From: Prorocentrum cordatum
Taxonomy: Eukaryota
DNA length: 57,628 bases
Assembly (NCBI GenBank): GCA_963575745.1
Contig: CAUYUJ010000009.1
Location: 62,001 to 119,628 of the forward strand
Direction of reading: 5' to 3'
The stretch's first letter is position 1, and each line of letters begins with the position of its first letter. This document shows positions 2,074-39,045 of this stretch, in pieces. The translations under genes were made by a program, and so were the position numbers. Under the pieces are notes generated by a model. The model saw only the letters and a list, made by a program, of their open reading frames with translations, was not told where the DNA came from and did not search any database.

Positions 2074-2421
2074 CACCTCCCCATCTCGGACGGAAACGTG
2101 AAAGCCACACTGAGCCCGGCGCCCCTCACCTCCCACCCCGCCCCCTCCCCCTTCTACCCTTAAGTCTGGCCTGTCCCCCTCCAGAGGGATTTTGGAGGAA
2201 AAAGTCGAAAAATAATCAAAAAATAATCCCCAGACTATTTAACCACTATTTTTGAAGATTCCTCCTGTAGAGGGACAGGCCCGACTTAACTCTACCCTCC
2301 GAGGCCCTGCGCACCTCCTCTCGACCTCCTCCCACCGCACTCCCCTGACCTCCCCTCTTCTCCTCCCGTCCGAGGCCCTCGCTCCCCTCCCCAGCTCTCC
2401 TCCCCTCACATTTCCCTTCCC

Positions 2422-4838: not shown

Positions 4839-4979
4839 AACTATACACCAACACCGATCCTGGCCAGGATACCCTGGCCCAGGATCGGTGCATATGCCCT
4901 CTTGCCCAAGGCAGGGGGGCGTATACACCGATCCTGGGCCCAGGGTGATCCTGGCCAGGATCGGTGTTGGTGTATAGTT
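4839..4979. mobile_element. Near-perfect palindromic MITE
   Basis: aactatacaccaacaccgatcctggccaggat ... atcctggccaggatcggtgttggtgtatagtt. A diverged relative lies at ~25345-25487. Confidence 0.8.
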
Positions 4980-26566: not shown

Positions 26567-28043
<1,477 letters not shown>

Positions 28044-33418: not shown

Positions 33419-33792
33419 AGAAGTGAGGGGGGACGGACCCTGACCCCTTGCGCAGTGAAGCAAAGCACGAAAGGAGGCCTTTGTGCGTCTGCCCGGCATC
33501 TCGGCCCCCGGAGGACCCTGCCAGGCCCACCAAGGCCGTCGGGATGGCTCGGGATGAGAAGCCCGTCCACGGGCAGGGGCCCAGACCTCGGCATCGGACT
33601 TCAAGGCCCGAAGAAAAACTTGAGCCCAAATGGGCCGCGGACCATCCCCCTTACCAGGCACCCTCCCACTAAAACCTTACGTTCTGGGCTGCGCGCGAAC
33701 TCCCGCCTCCTGCTCCTCCTCCTGCTCCTCCTCCTGGCGAACAAGAACACGACGTCGGACGTCTGGGGAAGGGGGTTGGAGGTAGGAGGCTT

Positions 33793-34011
33793 GTGAACGT
33801 TCTGCTATTCGGCGTTGCGACATTGGGCGGAAGGGGGGGGGGTCTGGCTCTGGACCTCTGCTTACTGCGACGTTTTGCAACAGTGCGTCCTATCGGAAAG
33901 ACTCCACCTGCTTGAAACAGGCGCCCAAAAACGCAAAGATCTGCTCCAGGAGGGGGGAAAGGGGGGTGCGAGGGCCCGCGCCGCTCGGCTAAACTATAAG
34001 AAAACGATCAC
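33793..34011. repeat. ~220-bp dispersed direct repeat (second copy 37983-38213)
   Basis: Both begin gtgaacgtt(c/t)tgctattcggcgtt..cattgggcggaaggggggg and share ggacctctgc, cgtcctatcgg, gaaacaggcgcc and gtgcgagggccc. Confidence 0.8.
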
Positions 34012-35469
34012 CTTCCGTTCAATCAGCCGGGTTCTGACGTTGTTAAGCGTGTTCGGAAATTCTCAGAGTCTGTAAAGGAAGCGCTGGTACGAGGCAGTGG
34101 CGGGATGGGTTAGGGGGAGGAGCAAGGGGGCCTGGGCAGAAGGGTCCACGAAACCTTTTTTTTGTGCTCTAGGTGCGGCGCCACAACCCAAATACACTGC
34201 AAGACGAAGGAGACGCAGGGTGCCGTCAGCCCGCGGCTGCGTTCCCACCCAACCAAAAGAAGATATAAGAGGAGAGAGTGGGTACGAATCCCCGCAATAG
34301 AATAGCAAATTGTGCACATAACGGACATGATGACGTCGTAACTCCTTGGTCGCGGGGTCTGGACACGCGAAAACACAATGCGAGAGGAAAGGGACGCAGA
34401 GGACTGTCACAGCACAGAGCTGCAGTGCCACCCAGCAGAGACGCAAAATGCCTTCACAGGCAGTGGCTGCACAGTCTCGGACAGCGAAGGATGGGAAATT
34501 GCGGAACCGCTCTCTGGGAGGGGGGAAATTTGTAATGCTGCTTCGACCCGCCCCGGGCCCGACCCCCCCAAACGAAGAGAGCAAGCGCGCAACTGCGAAG
34601 AGGCCTCTGGCCCGCGACCCAGGCACGGTGGCGGGGTAAGCTGAAGGCAATCATTCTACAGACACGCGAAGCCCCTGTCGAATTTCGGCGGCAGGCGAGC
34701 GCGTTCAGGCCGCTGCTTTCAAACATAATGCGCGGGCTGTCACGCCGGGTGGCGGAGCACGTGCAAGTGGAACGATGAATGACAGAGGTCGACAGAGAAC
34801 AGCCGTGAAATAAAACGCACGCGCTGTCGGATCGCGTGCAGGAGGAACGCGGCATGCCGGAGGACGGAGAAAAGAAAGCTGCATTGGAAAACCATGCACG
34901 CGCTGACACGCCCGTTGGCCGATGTTGACAGACCACGTGCAGGAAGGATCAGGGCTCACGGGGGCGGGAAGCATGAAAATACATGGAGGAAGGGAACGGG
35001 GAGGAGGGAGAGGTCACCTTGAAGGAGGCGGTGGGGGGGGGGGGCGCGGCCCGCCCGCTGGGCGCAGCTCGCAGCCGCCCCAGAAGGCGCGCGGGGCCTC
35101 GCGACAGGCCAGCAGCGCAGCGGGTCCCAACGCGGCCGGATCAACCGTCGCCGCCTCGAAGAAGGAACACATGGTACCACGGGAGCATCGCAAAACTGAC
35201 GTGACCGATTGGGACTGTCTGGGGCAGCTCTTGGGACCTCGCGTCGATCGGCGTATGTCCGAGAAGATGGTGGACGAAACTGCCCAGGAGGCAGAAGCCA
35301 GTGGACAAGACGCCGTTACAGCGCAGGCCACAGACTTTGCGGGAGGCGACGGAACGTGACAGGCAGTAAGCTGGACTGCATTGTTAGATGCTAGACCTGC
35401 GCAGTGCATTGGAGTCACAGTTGGCTCACAGCAAGCCTCGCTCAGCGGTCGCGCCCCCGACCCTGCCAT

Positions 35470-35845
35470 TCATCCGCGGACACGTTCCCCACATCGCTGC
35501 GGACGCTCTCCTCTTGCAATCCTCTGCAGGCCACTGTTTCTGTGTCTGAGTGGTGCCGACGCGCAGCCATCACCCGCCGCTTCCGTCGGTGACTCGTGGA
35601 TCAGCGGCAATCTTCCTGAGAGTCTCTGCGGCCCGCTCTGCCAAGGCATGCGAAACTTCGACACCCCAGTCAGCTGCATCTGTACGATCGTATTGAAATC
35701 ATCGGAATCTTCATCTGAATCACGTGGGCCAATCACGGGGCCTTCGACTGCAAGCGCTGCGCACTCCGCCCGCAGAAACGTAGCTCCGCTTCTGGAAAAC
35801 CGCAGGGCCCCGAGGCCGACGCTCGCCGTGACCTCCTCGCCATCC
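35470..35845 (-). CDS. Exon 2 of the TM/PAS-like protein
   Basis: Removing 35846-36023 (GT...AG) joins NQEEY-R-DGEEVTASVGLGALRFSRSG... in frame: 1700 + 376 nt = 692 codons, ending at TGA 35470. Confidence 0.75.
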
Positions 35846-36023
35846 CTATACTCGGGGATGGACAGACCTCCCTTTAGTAAAACGTGGTTTAGTGAAAACG
35901 ACCTCGGGCCCAAACCTGGCGGGCGCAAGCCTGGAAAATAACGGCCGCGGCGCCCTCTCGAGAATCGAAAACGGACAATTCACTAATCGACGTGTCAAGG
36001 CAGGAGGTCTGTCCACCCCCGAC
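35846..36023 (-). mobile_element. Introner-like MITE forming a 178-nt GT-AG intron
   Basis: 20-bp TIRs at 35852-35871 (tcggggatggacagacctcc) and 36003-36022 (ggaggtctgtccacccccga), 1 mismatch. 7-bp direct repeat cctatac at 35845-35851 and 36023-36029. The minus-strand intron starts GT and ends AG. Confidence 0.9.
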
Positions 36024-37723
36024 CTATACTCCTCCTGATTCACCAGCTCTTGGACGGTCCTGTGGATCACATCCAGAGCCTCTCTTGGAAGCCACTCCTC
36101 CAAGCGGGGTGCCCGGCCGCTGTCGCCGAAGCGCAGGCACATGTCCTCGACGGGCAGACCGCTGCTCGCCGAGTCCAGCCGCAGGCAGATGGACGAGACG
36201 CAACCCTCGTCCGGCGCGCAGCTCCCGGACGAGGACGAGGCCCTCGAGGACGACGCGAGCGAGCTTCGCAACCCCAGGCCTGCGTGCTGAACGGGTGGCT
36301 GCGACGCCGCCCCTGGCTCCGCCGGGTGGCGGTGCGGCTGCTCGCGGGCCAGCGCCGGCGCCGCGCCAGGCGGCCGACGCGGGTCGCTGGCCGGCGGCGC
36401 CCCCGCAGGCGCGCCCGCCTCTGGGCCGGGCTCGCGCGCGGGCGCTGTGGCCGCCAGCTGCTGCAGTGCCACAACGCCTGGGGCATCCGTGCATGCCTCC
36501 CGCGGCAGCGCTTCGCAGGTCTCCCGGATCCCGACCAGGAGCTCGGGGGCATCGATGGCGTCGTCGAGGCAGATCAGGAACAGCTCCACGGGGATCGGGT
36601 TCGCCGACCCCTCCGTGCACAGATTCACCTGGATGGAAGCAGCAGGGCGCCGAGCGCATTCGCCCAAGATCGGATCATCGGCTGCTGAGTCTTCCGACTG
36701 CAATCCCGCCGTCGCCGAGATGAAGTCCTGGAAGCGCTGCTGGTCGGACTCTCCCACGTACTGAAGGAAATTGCGTCCATGAAGAGTGCTTCTCCTGTCA
36801 GTGCTTCTCATGTCTCTTGTCCCATCTTCTGCGCCCAGCAAATTCACAAGATGTGGAGAATGGGAGATGATGCCACATCGTGGGCAGATGTGCAGCTGGG
36901 CGTCGCAGAATACAGCGAGCAACCTTTGACATGCCAGATGCAAGCTAGACTCTCGGGAAGCATTGAGGATGTCCTTGTCGCAAACTCCCAGAAATACTGA
37001 GGCAGCGCAGACAAGTACACAAGTAACCAATTCAATCATGAAGTGGTGAAAAAACGCAGCCATGGAAGATTGTCCATCGATGCGTAGCTGCCCGCGCCGA
37101 TCCCAGACAGAGAGGCACATCACTGCAGAGAAGTAGATGTTCCATCTCACAGACATACTGCAATCAAGTGCCAATAATGCAATAATCACTCGTAGCGCGC
37201 TCCACAACCCGCCGTACATGAGAAAACTATGCGTGTCTGCAAAGTACCCACGACATGCAATGCCCAGCATGACCACTTTGAATATGCACTCTCCGCCGAC
37301 GGGGTAGGAACCGTACCGACGTTTCAAGTACCCCCAGTAAAACGTTGCAAAGTGACGCCCGCACATGAACACCGCCCTGAATGCAAGACCAATGTTGGAA
37401 GGACTTACTGTATACATGCAAATCACCAGCATCATAAATAGAGCCGAAAAAGGTAACAGCGCCAGGTCCAACGCATACACCATTCGCGCCAGCCTGGTCT
37501 TGTTGAAGTCTCTTGATCTTCTTCTCTCGAAGGACGTGAATTGACAAGGCGAGAACATCGATTTGACTGCTACTTTGCATGCGTGAAGCGATGCTACAAA
37601 ACCGCCCCAATCAAGCAAGACATCTGCAACGAAGCAGCATAGGCTGAAGGAGATACACGTGCGAACGACGACAGTGAAGAAATACTCTTGCTGCGCCACC
37701 TCAAGCAAGGGCGAGTAGGACAT
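36024..37723 (-). CDS. Exon 1 of a multi-pass membrane protein with a PAS-like domain (about 691 aa after splicing)
   Basis: ATG at 37723 and non-repetitive protein-like composition. Several hydrophobic segments in the first ~250 aa are followed by a PAS-like segment (LLAVFCDAQLHI...LHGRNFLQYVGESDQQRFQDFI...IQVNL...VELFLI...LLVGIRE). SL relic upstream. The PAS call is by eye. Confidence 0.8.
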
Positions 37724-37832
37724 ACCACCGGCTCACCACTAGGCTCTGCACCGTTTTCAGTGTCAGACAAGCCGGATCGCGCCCGAAAGGTCGTCTAACA
37801 CGATGGGGCACTCGAACCCGCCTGTTTGAGGG

Positions 37833-37852
37833 CTTGAGCCAACTGCTACGGA
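37833..37852 (-). other. Degenerate relic spliced leader upstream of the TM/PAS gene
   Basis: Minus strand TCCGTAGCAGTTGGCTCAAG: both 8-nt ends of DinoSL are exact (TCCGTAGC, GGCTCAAG) and the middle is altered. It lies 109 nt upstream of the ATG. Confidence 0.85.
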
Positions 37853-38275
37853 GGGTCAAGAAGGGTCCACGAAACCTGCTACGATGTACCACAAACTCAG
37901 CGTTTGACAGCACATTTGTAAATATAGAGGGCCAGAAAACTACGGACTCGAAGCCAAAAGCGCACGCATGTCGGGCTCGATGGTGAACGTTTTGCTATTC
38001 GGCGTTACGGCATTGGGCGGAAGGGGGGGAGCGGGGAGGGTCTGGCTCGGGACCTCTGCGTAATGCGACTGTTTGCATCAGTTCGTCCTATCGGGGAGGC
38101 CCCACCTGCCCGAAACAGGCGCCAAATAAAGCCAAGATCTACTTCAAGGGGGAAAGGGGGAGTGCGAGGGCCCTCGCCGATCGGCAAAACAACGCATAGG
38201 AAAACAATCGCACGCGTCAGGTGAGCAGTCGTTGACTCACAGGAGGCTTCACTTACTCAGTAGAAAATTGGGGTC

Positions 38276-38276
<1 letters not shown>

Positions 38277-38316
<40 letters not shown>

Positions 38317-38361
38317 GCACGCACGCACGCACGTACGCACGCACGCAAGCACACACAAACA

Positions 38362-38398
<37 letters not shown>

Positions 38399-38531
38399 AC
38401 ACACACACACACACGCACGCACGCACGCACGCACACGAACGCGCACACACACACACAAACACACAGGCACACGCACACACGCACACACACACACGCACAC
38501 TCTCTCTCTCACACACACACACTCACACACG

Positions 38532-38583
<52 letters not shown>

Positions 38584-38617
38584 ACACACACACAACACAC
38601 ACACACACAACACACAC

Positions 38618-38658
<41 letters not shown>

Positions 38659-38721
38659 TCAACACACACACACACACACAACACACAACACACACACACC
38701 ACAACACACACACACAGCGCG

Positions 38722-38769
<48 letters not shown>

Positions 38770-38842
38770 CCCCACACGCCACACGCCCACACACCCACAC
38801 ACACACACACACGCGCGCGCGCACACACATACACGCAAACAC

Positions 38843-38879
<37 letters not shown>

Positions 38880-39045
38880 GCGCGCGCACACACACACACT
38901 TTTTGCGTCGGCTGTTGGGCAGAAGGTGACTGCTCTGGCAGAATGGTAACAGGGGACACGCTGTTTGCAAATTAAGGCCGCAATGCACAAAGGAAGAGGA
39001 GGAGCAGAACACGCGCGCGCACACACGCACGCACGCACGCACGCA

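What the first reader, a model, noticed from the sequence alone, without database searches (positions are those of the whole stretch)
35845..36029. Transposon that makes its own intron: a TIR/TSD Introner inside a retrogene
Seen: a 171-bp element with 20-bp TIRs (1 mismatch) and a 7-bp TSD (GTATAGG on the coding strand) interrupts the gene. The last G of the first TSD plus the first T of the TIR make the GT donor, and the AG inside the second TSD makes the acceptor. Splicing 36023-35846 removes the element plus exactly one TSD length and restores E-E-Y-R-D-G-E-E-V in frame, adding 124 aa. Unspliced, the ORF reads through the element and stops at the TAG in the TSD. Known: Introners are non-autonomous DNA transposons that create introns by co-opting TSD splice sites, and they are reported in dinoflagellates. 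Inference: the host is a retrocopy (SL relic, poly(A), TSD) and so was presumably born intronless, which makes this a directional, recent case of intron gain. I cannot tell whether this TIR family is already described.
Basis: partly seen in the sequence, partly recalled or inferred. Interest (0 to 1): 0.9.

Follow-up and report, generated by a model that had tools for sequence, protein, structure and literature searches.

The report
Transposon-made intron in a dinoflagellate retrogene
A 171-base mobile DNA element sits inside a reverse-transcribed gene copy of a dinoflagellate in exactly the position that would let the cell splice it out as an intron, which is a neat example of a mechanism already well documented in these algae.

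Summary
A 171-bp element (35852-36022) has 20-nt inverted ends (19/20) and a perfect 7-bp target duplication. It interrupts a 691-codon reading frame on the minus strand. GT (last G of TSD plus first T of the element) and AG (inside the second TSD) delimit 178 nt, and removing them restores E-E-Y-R-D-G-E-E-V.

The spliced translation equals a public 691-aa protein model filed under Prorocentrum cordatum. Seven of 10 distant paralogues and 2 of 2 near-identical copies read across the junction. The element is dispersed: 21 other public proteins carry its read-through peptide with unrelated flanks, and RNA contigs leave it exactly at its ends. The host is a clear retrocopy, with a spliced-leader relic, an A8 tail and an 18-bp TSD.

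Two caveats apply:
- The RNA contigs that join 35844/36023 carry paralogue alleles, and a spliced product is identical to an empty site, so splicing of this copy is not shown.
- Dinoflagellate retrogenes often keep parental introns, so "born intronless" is not safe.

Introners that co-opt TSD splice sites are already described in dinoflagellates, and introner elements have been counted in this genome. Verdict: a real new member of a known kind, of modest interest.

The parts
35852..36022 (-). 171-bp non-autonomous TIR element (MITE/Introner copy)
   Evidence: TIRs (I1). Only copy in the window (blastn). Unit of similarity in 21 other proteins starts and ends at its termini. RNA contigs leave the window at 35850/35852 and 36022/36023 (table 7).
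36003..36022 (-). 5' TIR as read on the coding strand (TCGGGGGTGGACAGACCTCC)
35852..35871 (-). 3' TIR as read on the coding strand (…GGAGGTCTGTCCATCCCCGA); 1 mismatch to the other arm
36023..36029 (-). first copy of the 7-bp TSD GTATAGG. Its last G (36023) plus the first T of the TIR (36022) make the GT donor.
   Evidence: (D5)
35845..35851 (-). second copy of the TSD GTATAGG. AG at 35847-35846 is the acceptor. TAG at 35848-35846 stops the unspliced frame.
35846..36023 (-). 178-nt predicted intron (element plus one TSD length), GT..AG, phase 2
   Evidence: Joint 35844->36023 'skips 178' in contigs of X13, X1 and X5 (table 5). Folds as a long hairpin, -86.8 kcal/mol, z -7.07.
36024..37723 (-). 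exon 1 of the CDS (codons 1-566 plus 2 nt of codon 567)
   Evidence: Spliced translation is identical to P0001.
35470..35845 (-). exon 2 of the CDS (last nt of codon 567, codons 568-691, stop)
   Evidence: Conserved in 7 of 10 paralogues and 2 of 2 near-identical copies.
37833..37852 (-). degenerate spliced-leader relic TCCGTAGCAGTTGGCTCAAG
   Evidence: Compared with the 22-nt DinoSL printed in PMC6050394: 1 substitution and 2 missing bases.
37859..37876 (-). upstream copy of the 18-bp retrocopy TSD GGTTTCGTGGACCCTTCT
34156..34163 (-). A8 tract, remnant of the poly(A) tail, directly followed by the second retrocopy TSD
34138..34155 (-). downstream copy of the 18-bp retrocopy TSD

Best explanation
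The 171 bp are one copy of a dispersed, non-coding TIR DNA transposon (a MITE). It inserted, with a 7-bp target-site duplication, into the coding sequence of a spliced-leader-tagged retrocopy of a dinoflagellate membrane-protein gene.

The duplicated target ends in AGG and the element begins with T. The insertion therefore created a GT donor (last G of TSD 1 plus first T of the TIR) and an AG acceptor (inside TSD 2). These bracket exactly the element plus one TSD length (178 nt). The spliceosome can then remove the insertion and give back the pre-insertion mRNA. This is an Introner-type intron. The long TIR hairpin brings the two splice sites together.

Shown here:
- the element, its TIRs and TSD, and its multi-copy nature with sharp termini;
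- the frame restoration;
- conservation of the protein across the junction;
- the retrocopy marks;
- use of this intron by the public gene model.

Inferred:
- that this copy is transcribed and spliced;
- that the insertion happened after retroposition.
For: Anatomy: (TIR 19/20, TSD 7/7, GT..AG, 691-codon frame).

Chance controls: 0 of 100 shuffles. 0 of 40 simulated windows with a TIR of 14 or more plus a TSD of 7 or more.

Multi-copy family:
- In the four runs laid, the depth bin inside the element (35848-36001) is 125/11.9/444/89. The bins beside it are 6.4/0/55/30 and 9.8/1.5/50/26 (table 2).
- 5 of the 17 listed loose ends sit at 35850/35852 or 36022/36023, and 6 more lie inside the element (table 7; 12 more rows not shown).
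- The 58-aa read-through peptide finds 4+1 proteins and 20 cluster representatives at E<=1e-3, 10 of them at E<=1e-10. That is 21 different proteins in all.
- In 16 of these the match starts at query residue 1-2 behind an unrelated flank. In 12 it ends at residue 56-58 before an unrelated flank. In 9 both hold.
- Two are models from other P. cordatum contigs, one inside a serine hydroxymethyltransferase gene (PF00464).

Mobility: one RNA contig runs from the element's end (36022) straight into 27 nt identical to window 2263-2289, the end of another MITE plus its TTAA. The window's copy of that MITE is uninterrupted there.

Coding continuity:
- The spliced translation is identical to P0001 (691 aa).
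- 7 of 10 paralogues at 41-57% identity align through the junction with a conserved ...LVNQREYxDGEE....
- P0012 and P0013 (96/95% identity) both read EEYRDGEEV.

RNA: contigs join 35844 to 36023 ('skips 178', CT..AC on + strand, cut +1) in 3 of the 4 runs laid. X13 is poly(A) RNA (505-nt contig, 207 and 298 nt on the two sides). X1 has a 749-nt contig. X5 has a short side of 27 nt (table 5).

Hairpin: -86.8 kcal/mol, and 0 of 200 shuffles fold as well.

Retrocopy: SL relic, A8 and 18/18 TSD.

Precedent: Roy et al. preprint, class 12 and class 14 ILEs.
Against: No RNA evidence ties splicing to this copy.
- All 20 variant places in the CDS that I checked map to the alleles of P0013, and mostly of P0012 too. 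The 36-nt skip equals P0013's missing 12 residues. The X1 and X5 joined contigs are therefore the mRNA of a paralogous copy.
- X13's contig is a mosaic: window-like in exon 1, paralogue-like in exon 2.
- Every contig that covers 35676-35812 carries the paralogue letters. Contigs drop rare variants, so this does not prove silence.
- X19 does not cover the junction.
- X1 and X5 have no library kind on record.
- By construction a spliced mRNA equals an empty site, so the joint cannot separate the two.

A spliceable configuration arises by chance at 3.4% (GT) to 11.6% (GT/GC/GA) of positions.

The order of events is open. Dinoflagellate retrogenes often carry introns, some retained from the parent.

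The other copies found in proteins are read through as coding sequence by the gene callers. Their status as introns is not shown.

I could not see the DNA of any other copy, so TSD length and target preference of the family rest on this copy and one tentative second case.
Confidence: 0.62

Rival explanations
1. Plain MITE hit in a silent or decaying retrocopy. The element is real, but this copy is not expressed or not spliced. The annotated 'intron' is what one gets when transcripts of near-identical paralogues are mapped onto a copy that carries an extra 171+7 bp. The GT..AG is a lucky placement inside the 9-nt repeat.
For: - The joined contigs carry paralogue alleles.
- The joint can be placed at 10 positions ('both 9'), and one of them happens to be GT..AG.
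- 3.4-11.6% of random insertions in this CDS would be spliceable.
- Differences from the paralogues in exon 2 are 5 non-synonymous to 3 synonymous, which is compatible with relaxed constraint.
- The genome paper built its models with transcript mapping (PASA) (PMC10666404, methods passage).
Against: - The 691-codon frame is intact once the 178 nt are removed.
- X13 holds contigs with window-type letters at 36071-36315 and 35329-35666 (tables 3 and 8), so a copy close to this one is probably expressed.
- GT..AG with a TIR hairpin is the standard Introner layout.
Confidence: 0.25
2. Inherited Introner. The element was already an intron of the parent gene. The retrocopy was made from an SL-capped but still unspliced pre-mRNA, so nothing was gained in the retrocopy.
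For: - Song et al. 2017 (PMC5585692, passages) report that Symbiodinium retrogenes have about as many introns as other genes (3.74 vs 4.17; 16.74 vs 17.1). They also report that some retain parental introns.
- PMC6050394 (passages) says the same.
- P0012 and P0013 share the same junction.
Against: - The rest of the 3.7-kb retrocopy has no other annotated intron: the 691-aa model is exactly two exons. Mean intron length in this genome is 4.7 kb and mean gene length 24.5 kb (PMC10666404 supplement). The template was therefore otherwise fully spliced, or its parent was intronless.
- Roy et al. report median splicing efficiency above 99% for dinoflagellate introns.
- The element's TSD is perfect and its TIRs 19/20, so the insertion is young.
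Confidence: 0.2
3. Not a transposon: a chance or locally evolved palindrome within an ordinary intron.
For: None beyond the fact that no second copy lies in the window.
Against: Shuffle controls, 21 other proteins carrying the same unit with unrelated flanks, and RNA contigs branching off exactly at the termini.
Confidence: 0.01

Closest known systems
Introner-like elements of Polarella glacialis, especially class 12 (TSD NNAGG) and class 14 (TSD AGGH) (Roy et al., bioRxiv 10.1101/2020.10.14.339549; I read parts 1-2 of 4)
   Same: A non-autonomous element whose insertion creates the intron. The 3' splice site AG is taken from the TSD. [quoted passage not shown] Splicing removes the element plus one TSD.
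   Different: Here the TSD is 7 bp. The classes described in the parts I read have 3, 4, 5 or 8. Here the first base is T, giving a GT donor, whereas class 12 starts with C and gives GC. The species differs.
Introner elements counted in the Prorocentrum cordatum genome (Dougan et al., PMC10666404; passages and supplementary note)
   Same: Same genome by the protein's label. [quoted passage not shown] Found in 2.4% of introns.
   Different: That survey was a pattern count (inverted repeats of 8-20 nt, direct repeats of 3-5 nt within 30 nt of the intron ends). In what I read it gave no families, TSD lengths, splice-site co-option or link to retrogenes.
Symbiodinium / Micromonas / Aureococcus Introners (Gozashti et al. 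2022, PMC9860276, passages; Huff et al. 2016, seen only as a reference)
   Same: TIR+TSD DNA-transposon Introners that carry one splice site and co-opt the other, or both, from the TSD. There is no change in mRNA length.
   Different: 4-bp or 8-bp TSDs, and the splice sites sit at other positions relative to the element.
Amoebophrya invasive intronic elements (Farhat et al. 2021, PMC7789003; search listing only)
   Same: Dinoflagellate introns with terminal inverted and direct repeats that form hairpins.
   Different: Parasitic lineage with short repeats. I did not read the paper beyond the listing.
Dinoflagellate SL-relic retrogenes (Song et al. 2017, PMC5585692; PMC6050394; passages)
   Same: The host gene has a DinoSL relic upstream of the start codon.
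   Different: This copy also keeps an A8 tail and an 18-bp TSD. In the passages I read, 'target site' did not occur in PMC5585692.

Membership tests
Introner / Introner-like element | Many similar copies dispersed in the genome | tested here: met
   21 other proteins hold the element's read-through peptide with unrelated flanks. Depth is higher inside the element than beside it in all 4 runs, and contigs branch at its termini.
Introner / Introner-like element | The copy makes up (nearly) the whole of an annotated intron | tested here: met
   The intron is 178 nt, the element (171) plus one TSD (7). The public 691-aa model equals the translation spliced at these sites.
Introner / Introner-like element | Splice sites carried by the element or co-opted from the TSD, so that splicing restores the pre-insertion mRNA | tested here: met
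   G(TSD)+T(TIR) donor and AG acceptor in TSD 2. The frame is restored. Paralogues have no gap at the junction in 6 of the 7 that span it.
Introner / Introner-like element | The copy is actually spliced from transcripts of its own locus | tested here: inconclusive
   An exact joint is seen in 3 of the 4 runs laid, but on contigs with paralogue alleles. A spliced product is identical to an empty site.
Introner / Introner-like element | Other family members also form introns in unrelated genes | not testable with these tools
   No genome is held and no DNA of other copies could be fetched. The other copies were found only where gene callers read through them.
MITE (non-autonomous TIR DNA transposon) | Short, TIRs, TSD, no coding capacity for a transposase, multi-copy | tested here: met
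   171 bp, TIR 19/20, TSD 7/7. No Pfam family in proteins holding it other than the host's own SHMT. Multi-copy.
MITE (non-autonomous TIR DNA transposon) | Assignment to a transposase superfamily through an autonomous partner with the same TIRs | not testable with these tools
   No genome access. The TIR scan of viral contigs found 0. The metagenome scan gave 12 single-arm chance matches.
Dinoflagellate retrogene (processed retrocopy) | DinoSL relic upstream of the CDS | tested here: met
   TCCGTAGCAGTTGGCTCAAG at 37852-37833, compared with the DinoSL printed in PMC6050394.
Dinoflagellate retrogene (processed retrocopy) | Poly(A) remnant and flanking target-site duplication | tested here: met
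   A8 at 34163-34156, followed at once by the second copy of an 18-bp repeat. The first copy lies 6 nt upstream of the SL relic.
Dinoflagellate retrogene (processed retrocopy) | Lacks the introns of its parent gene | not testable with these tools

The most novel reading that the evidence does not exclude
This is a young, possibly still active 7-8-bp-TSD MITE family of Prorocentrum cordatum whose target preference (about TAYAGG on the coding strand) builds the AG|G(T) splice pair into each insertion. This copy is a truly polarised intron gain: it entered a retrocopy whose birth is marked by its own 18-bp TSD. If so, SL-tagged retrocopies with intact TSDs would be a genome-wide set of dated, initially intron-free substrates. 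On them the rate, target rules and splicing efficiency of Introner-driven intron gain could be measured directly.
Probability: 0.4. Interest if true: 0.5.

Novelty: new member of a known kind. Interest (0 to 1): 0.3.

Why it matters
Intron gain is rarely caught with its direction known. Here two nested insertion events each keep their target-site duplication: a retrocopy with an 18-bp TSD, and inside it a MITE with a 7-bp TSD. The order of events can therefore in principle be read from the sequence, and the empty state is known from paralogue mRNAs.

That makes a good teaching case. It also suggests a usable screen, namely Introners inside TSD-bounded retrocopies. It does not change the picture, though. 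Introners that borrow splice sites from their TSDs are established in dinoflagellates, and this genome was already reported to be rich in introner elements.

Tried and rejected
- Whole genome: none is held for this window. A genome-wide census of copies, TSDs, orientation and an autonomous partner was therefore impossible.
- Earlier notes of this scan: nothing by sequence or by place.
- TIR scan of viral contigs: 0 matches. Peptide scan of viral contigs: 56 pattern matches, none confirmed.
- Metagenome scan with the 18-mer TIR core: 12 loci, each with one arm only and no internal similarity to the element. These are chance matches and were dropped.
- Rfam on 34000-38000 at E<=1: no match.
- Pfam on the host protein P0001: no family, so the host function stays unknown.
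- Reading TSDs of other copies from the amino acids flanking the element peptide: not possible, because 7-8 nt is not a whole number of codons and the codons are ambiguous. Abandoned.
- A rule 'G before the TIR' did not hold either. In the class of proteins whose frame starts RG.., 2 of 4 have F before the element, so the base before the TIR is T.
- RNA cover: X19 has no depth at 35694-35847 and says nothing on the junction. In all four runs the bins 37850-38157 and 34000-34153 are empty. I draw nothing from these gaps.
- That no contig with this copy's own exon-2 alleles was seen is likewise no proof of silence.
- The second-copy TSD (TCCTGTAG, 8 bp) rests on pairing a left flank from X5 with a right flank from X19. 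Only 8 of the 10 visible left-flank letters fit the window's MITE. It is kept as tentative only.
- Superfamily assignment from TSD length alone (P, hAT, Mutator and Dada have TSDs of about 6-9 bp, from recall): not attempted as a claim.
Full report
**What is in the sequence**

- On the minus strand an ORF starts at 37723 and runs to a TAG at 35848-35846 (625 aa).
- Inside it lies a 171-bp stretch, 35852-36022. Its ends are 20-nt inverted repeats with one mismatch (I1).
- It is flanked by GTATAGG on both sides, at 36029-36023 and 35851-35845 (D5).
- The direct repeat is formally 9 nt (GAGTATAGG). The two extra letters of the right-hand copy are the last two letters of the TIR. With symmetric TIRs the TSD is therefore 7 bp, and the extra two are a 1-in-16 coincidence.
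- The last G of the first TSD and the first T of the element give GT. The AG at 35847-35846 lies inside the second TSD.
- Removing 36023..35846 (178 nt) yields ...GAG GAG TAT AG|G GAT GGC GAG GAG GTC..., that is EEYRDGEEV, and a 691-codon frame ending at 35470.

**Is it more than chance?**

- The TIR 20-mer with up to 3 mismatches occurs only at the two arms. 0 of 100 shuffles gave two matches.
- A scan of my own looked for TIRs of at least 14 nt with directly flanking TSDs of at least 4 nt. It found four structures in the window. 39 of 40 simulated windows had none and one had a single structure. None of the 40 had a TSD of 7 or more.
- The intron RNA folds into one long hairpin closed by the TIRs (-86.8 kcal/mol, z = -7.07). 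0 of 200 shuffles fold as well.

**It is a mobile, multi-copy element**

- No second copy lies in the window, and no genome is held. I therefore used two indirect routes.

*Route 1: public RNA contigs laid on 34000-38600.*
- Depth in the bin inside the element was 125/11.9/444/89 in runs X13/X19/X1/X5. The bins on either side were 6.4/0/55/30 and 9.8/1.5/50/26.
- Of the 17 loose ends listed (12 more not shown), five sit exactly at the termini: 35850 or 35852 'before', and 36022 or 36023 'behind'. Six more lie inside the element. Contigs therefore enter the element from several unrelated flanks.

*Route 2: the 58-residue read-through translation of the element, searched against protein collections.*
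- It finds 4 longer proteins and 1 of similar length. It also finds 20 cluster representatives at E<=1e-3, ten of them at E<=1e-10.
- Over the 21 different proteins, the match starts at query residue 1-2 behind an unrelated flank in 16. It ends at residue 56-58 before an unrelated flank in 12. Both hold in 9. The shared unit is thus the TIR-to-TIR element.
- Two of these are gene models on other contigs filed under Prorocentrum cordatum. One is a partial serine hydroxymethyltransferase (PF00464).
- These hits come from one of six frames, and only from places where a gene caller read through the element. The number is therefore a floor.

*One case shows transposition directly.*
- An X19 contig runs from the element's last base (36022) into 27 nt identical to window 2263-2289.
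- That stretch is the end of a different, 122-bp TTAA-flanked MITE at 2164-2285.
- In the window that MITE is uninterrupted, so it serves as an empty site.
- If the left flank seen in X5 belongs to the same locus, the duplication there is TCCTGTAG (8 bp). This pairing is tentative.

**The host frame is real**

- The protein spliced at the predicted sites is identical, residue for residue, to a 691-aa public model (P0001). NCBI and UniRef label it Prorocentrum cordatum; the nr name line also shows Polarella glacialis.
- Ten paralogues at 41-57% identity exist. Seven of them align through the junction with a conserved LVNQREYxDGEE motif, six without any gap there.
- Two further copies on other contigs, P0012 (691 aa) and P0013 (678 aa), are 96% and 95% identical. 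Both read EEYRDGEEV.
- The refuter 'homologous proteins do not continue into the exon-2 frame' fails, as does 'no other copies exist'.
- Pfam finds no family in the host protein.

**The host is a retrocopy**

- Twenty nucleotides at 37852-37833 are a degenerate DinoSL (TCCGTAGCAGTTGGCTCAAG). The 22-nt leader is printed in PMC6050394.
- Six nucleotides upstream of it lies GGTTTCGTGGACCCTTCT (37876-37859).
- The same 18-mer recurs at 34155-34138, immediately after an A8 tract at 34163-34156.
- SL relic, poly(A) remnant and an 18/18 TSD bound a 3.7-kb processed copy.

**What the RNA does and does not show**

- Contigs join 35844 to 36023 ('skips 178', ends CT..AC on the + strand with the cut one place on, which is GT..AG on the coding strand).
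- This is seen in 3 of the 4 runs laid. X13 is poly(A) RNA (207 and 298 nt on the two sides). X1 has a 749-nt contig. X5 has a short side of 27 nt. X19 does not cover the place.
- The predicted junction therefore exists in RNA of at least two studies.
- However, I mapped the 20 contig variants that I picked's table of differing letters and that lie in the CDS. All match the residues of P0013, and most also those of P0012.
- The 36-nt skip at 36353->36390 in X1 and X5 equals the 12 residues missing in P0013.
- The X1 and X5 joined contigs are therefore the mRNA of a paralogous copy.
- X13's contig is window-like in exon 1 and paralogue-like in exon 2. That suggests a further variant or a mosaic of majority alleles.
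- Splicing of an Introner gives back exactly the empty-site sequence. These contigs therefore cannot say whether their own loci carry the element, nor whether this copy is spliced.
- The tool warns that contigs drop rare variants. The lack of contigs with this copy's exon-2 letters is therefore no proof of silence.

**Most likely mechanism and its rivals**

- Best reading (about 0.6): a MITE inserted into the retrocopy's CDS. The AGG-ending target plus the T-starting TIR created GT...AG around the element plus one TSD, and the insertion is tolerated because it is spliced out.
- The configuration is not overwhelming on its own. 70 of 2070 positions of this CDS (3.4%) would allow an exact-restoring GT..AG, and 241 of 2070 (11.6%) with GT/GC/GA donors.
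- Rival 1 (about 0.25): a MITE hit in a silent retrocopy, with the intron being a by-product of mapping paralogue transcripts.
- Rival 2 (about 0.2): the Introner was inherited from the parent through an unspliced, SL-capped pre-mRNA.
- For rival 2, Song et al. report that Symbiodinium retrogenes have about as many introns as other genes and that some retain parental introns (PMC5585692, passages).
- Against rival 2, the model has no other intron, in a genome with mean intron length 4.7 kb and mean gene length 24.5 kb (PMC10666404 supplement).

**Comparison with what is known**

- Roy et al. (bioRxiv 10.1101/2020.10.14.339549, parts 1-2 of 4) describe 15 classes of Introner-like elements in Polarella glacialis, with TSDs of 3 to 8 nt.
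- Their class 12 takes the 3' site from an NNAGG TSD and makes the 5' site from the TSD's last G plus the element's first base. This is the same trick as here, with C instead of T and 5 instead of 7 bp.
- Gozashti et al. 2022 (PMC9860276, passages) list the same range of layouts across eukaryotes.
- The P. cordatum genome paper (PMC10666404, passages and supplementary note) reports introner elements in 2.4% of its introns. They were found by a pattern of 8-20-nt inverted and 3-5-nt direct repeats. I saw no family-level description there.
- 'Prorocentrum' does not occur in the main text of PMC9860276 or PMC12130899. Their datasets were not seen.
- A full-text search for 'introner' together with 'retrogene' gave 8 papers. 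By the titles of the 6 listed, none is on dinoflagellates.
- 'Prorocentrum' with 'introner' gave 7 papers, 6 of them listed. I read passages of two (the genome paper and a review). Neither describes a family. The other four I saw by title and abstract start only.
- The element family and its link to a TSD-bounded retrocopy therefore seem undescribed in that library. The kind of thing is well known.

**Verdict**

- The finding is real and nicely preserved, but it is a new member of a known kind.
I give 0.3.
- The case would rise if the paralogue or parent loci prove empty and copy-specific reads show splicing.

Noticed in passing
window 2164-2285: A 122-bp MITE-like element with 14-nt TIRs (1 mismatch), flanked by TTAA on both sides. 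Its last 23 nt plus TTAA (2263-2289) are identical to the sequence that follows the 171-bp element in an X19 RNA contig. Another copy of this MITE therefore seems to carry a nested copy of the Introner.
   Followed up: partly
window 4846-4972: A 127-bp element with perfect 24-nt TIRs, flanked by TATA. The inverted repeat extends through the flank to about 31 nt, so the TSD is ambiguous. It lies inside long ORFs on both strands. I did not examine whether it is an intron.
   Followed up: no
window 34741-35328 (3' UTR of the retrocopy): Contigs of X13 and X1 skip 588 nt here (short side 27 nt, 3 nt fit both sides). No offset gives an AG acceptor. Other contigs of X1, X19 and X5 cover or bridge the same stretch. 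This may be a deletion variant among the gene copies or a non-canonical intron.
   Followed up: no
window 36354-36389: A 36-nt in-frame indel in the Pro/Ala-rich low-complexity part. X1 and X5 contigs lack it, matching the 12 residues absent from the paralogous copy P0013.
   Followed up: yes
window 35676-35812: Eight differences lie within 137 nt next to the element between this copy and all covering RNA contigs. At all eight the window has G or C and the contigs have A or T. Five change the amino acid, to the residues of P0012/P0013. The cause is unexplained: a patch of private AT-to-GC changes, gene conversion, or simply older divergence.
   Followed up: partly
window 28022-28036 (-) and 33619-33633 (-): Two more spliced-leader relics on the minus strand, one exact over the 15 nt searched and one with 1 mismatch. 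The window therefore holds a row of same-strand SL-tagged retrocopies.
   Followed up: no
window 38232-38975: A long (GT)n/(CA)n-rich microsatellite just upstream of the retrocopy. The read-laying tool skipped 38269-38600 as repeat.
   Followed up: no
window 35852-35997: One X13 contig 'goes back 146' from 35997 to 35852, which is a rearranged or tandem form of the element in RNA contigs (table 5). In all four runs every contig has C at 35965 where the window has T, so this copy has at least one private base.
   Followed up: no
proteins P0001, P0012, P0013: The same three proteins are named Prorocentrum cordatum by NCBI and UniRef, but carry 'Polarella glacialis' in the nr name line. This is a labelling inconsistency in the source.
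   Followed up: no
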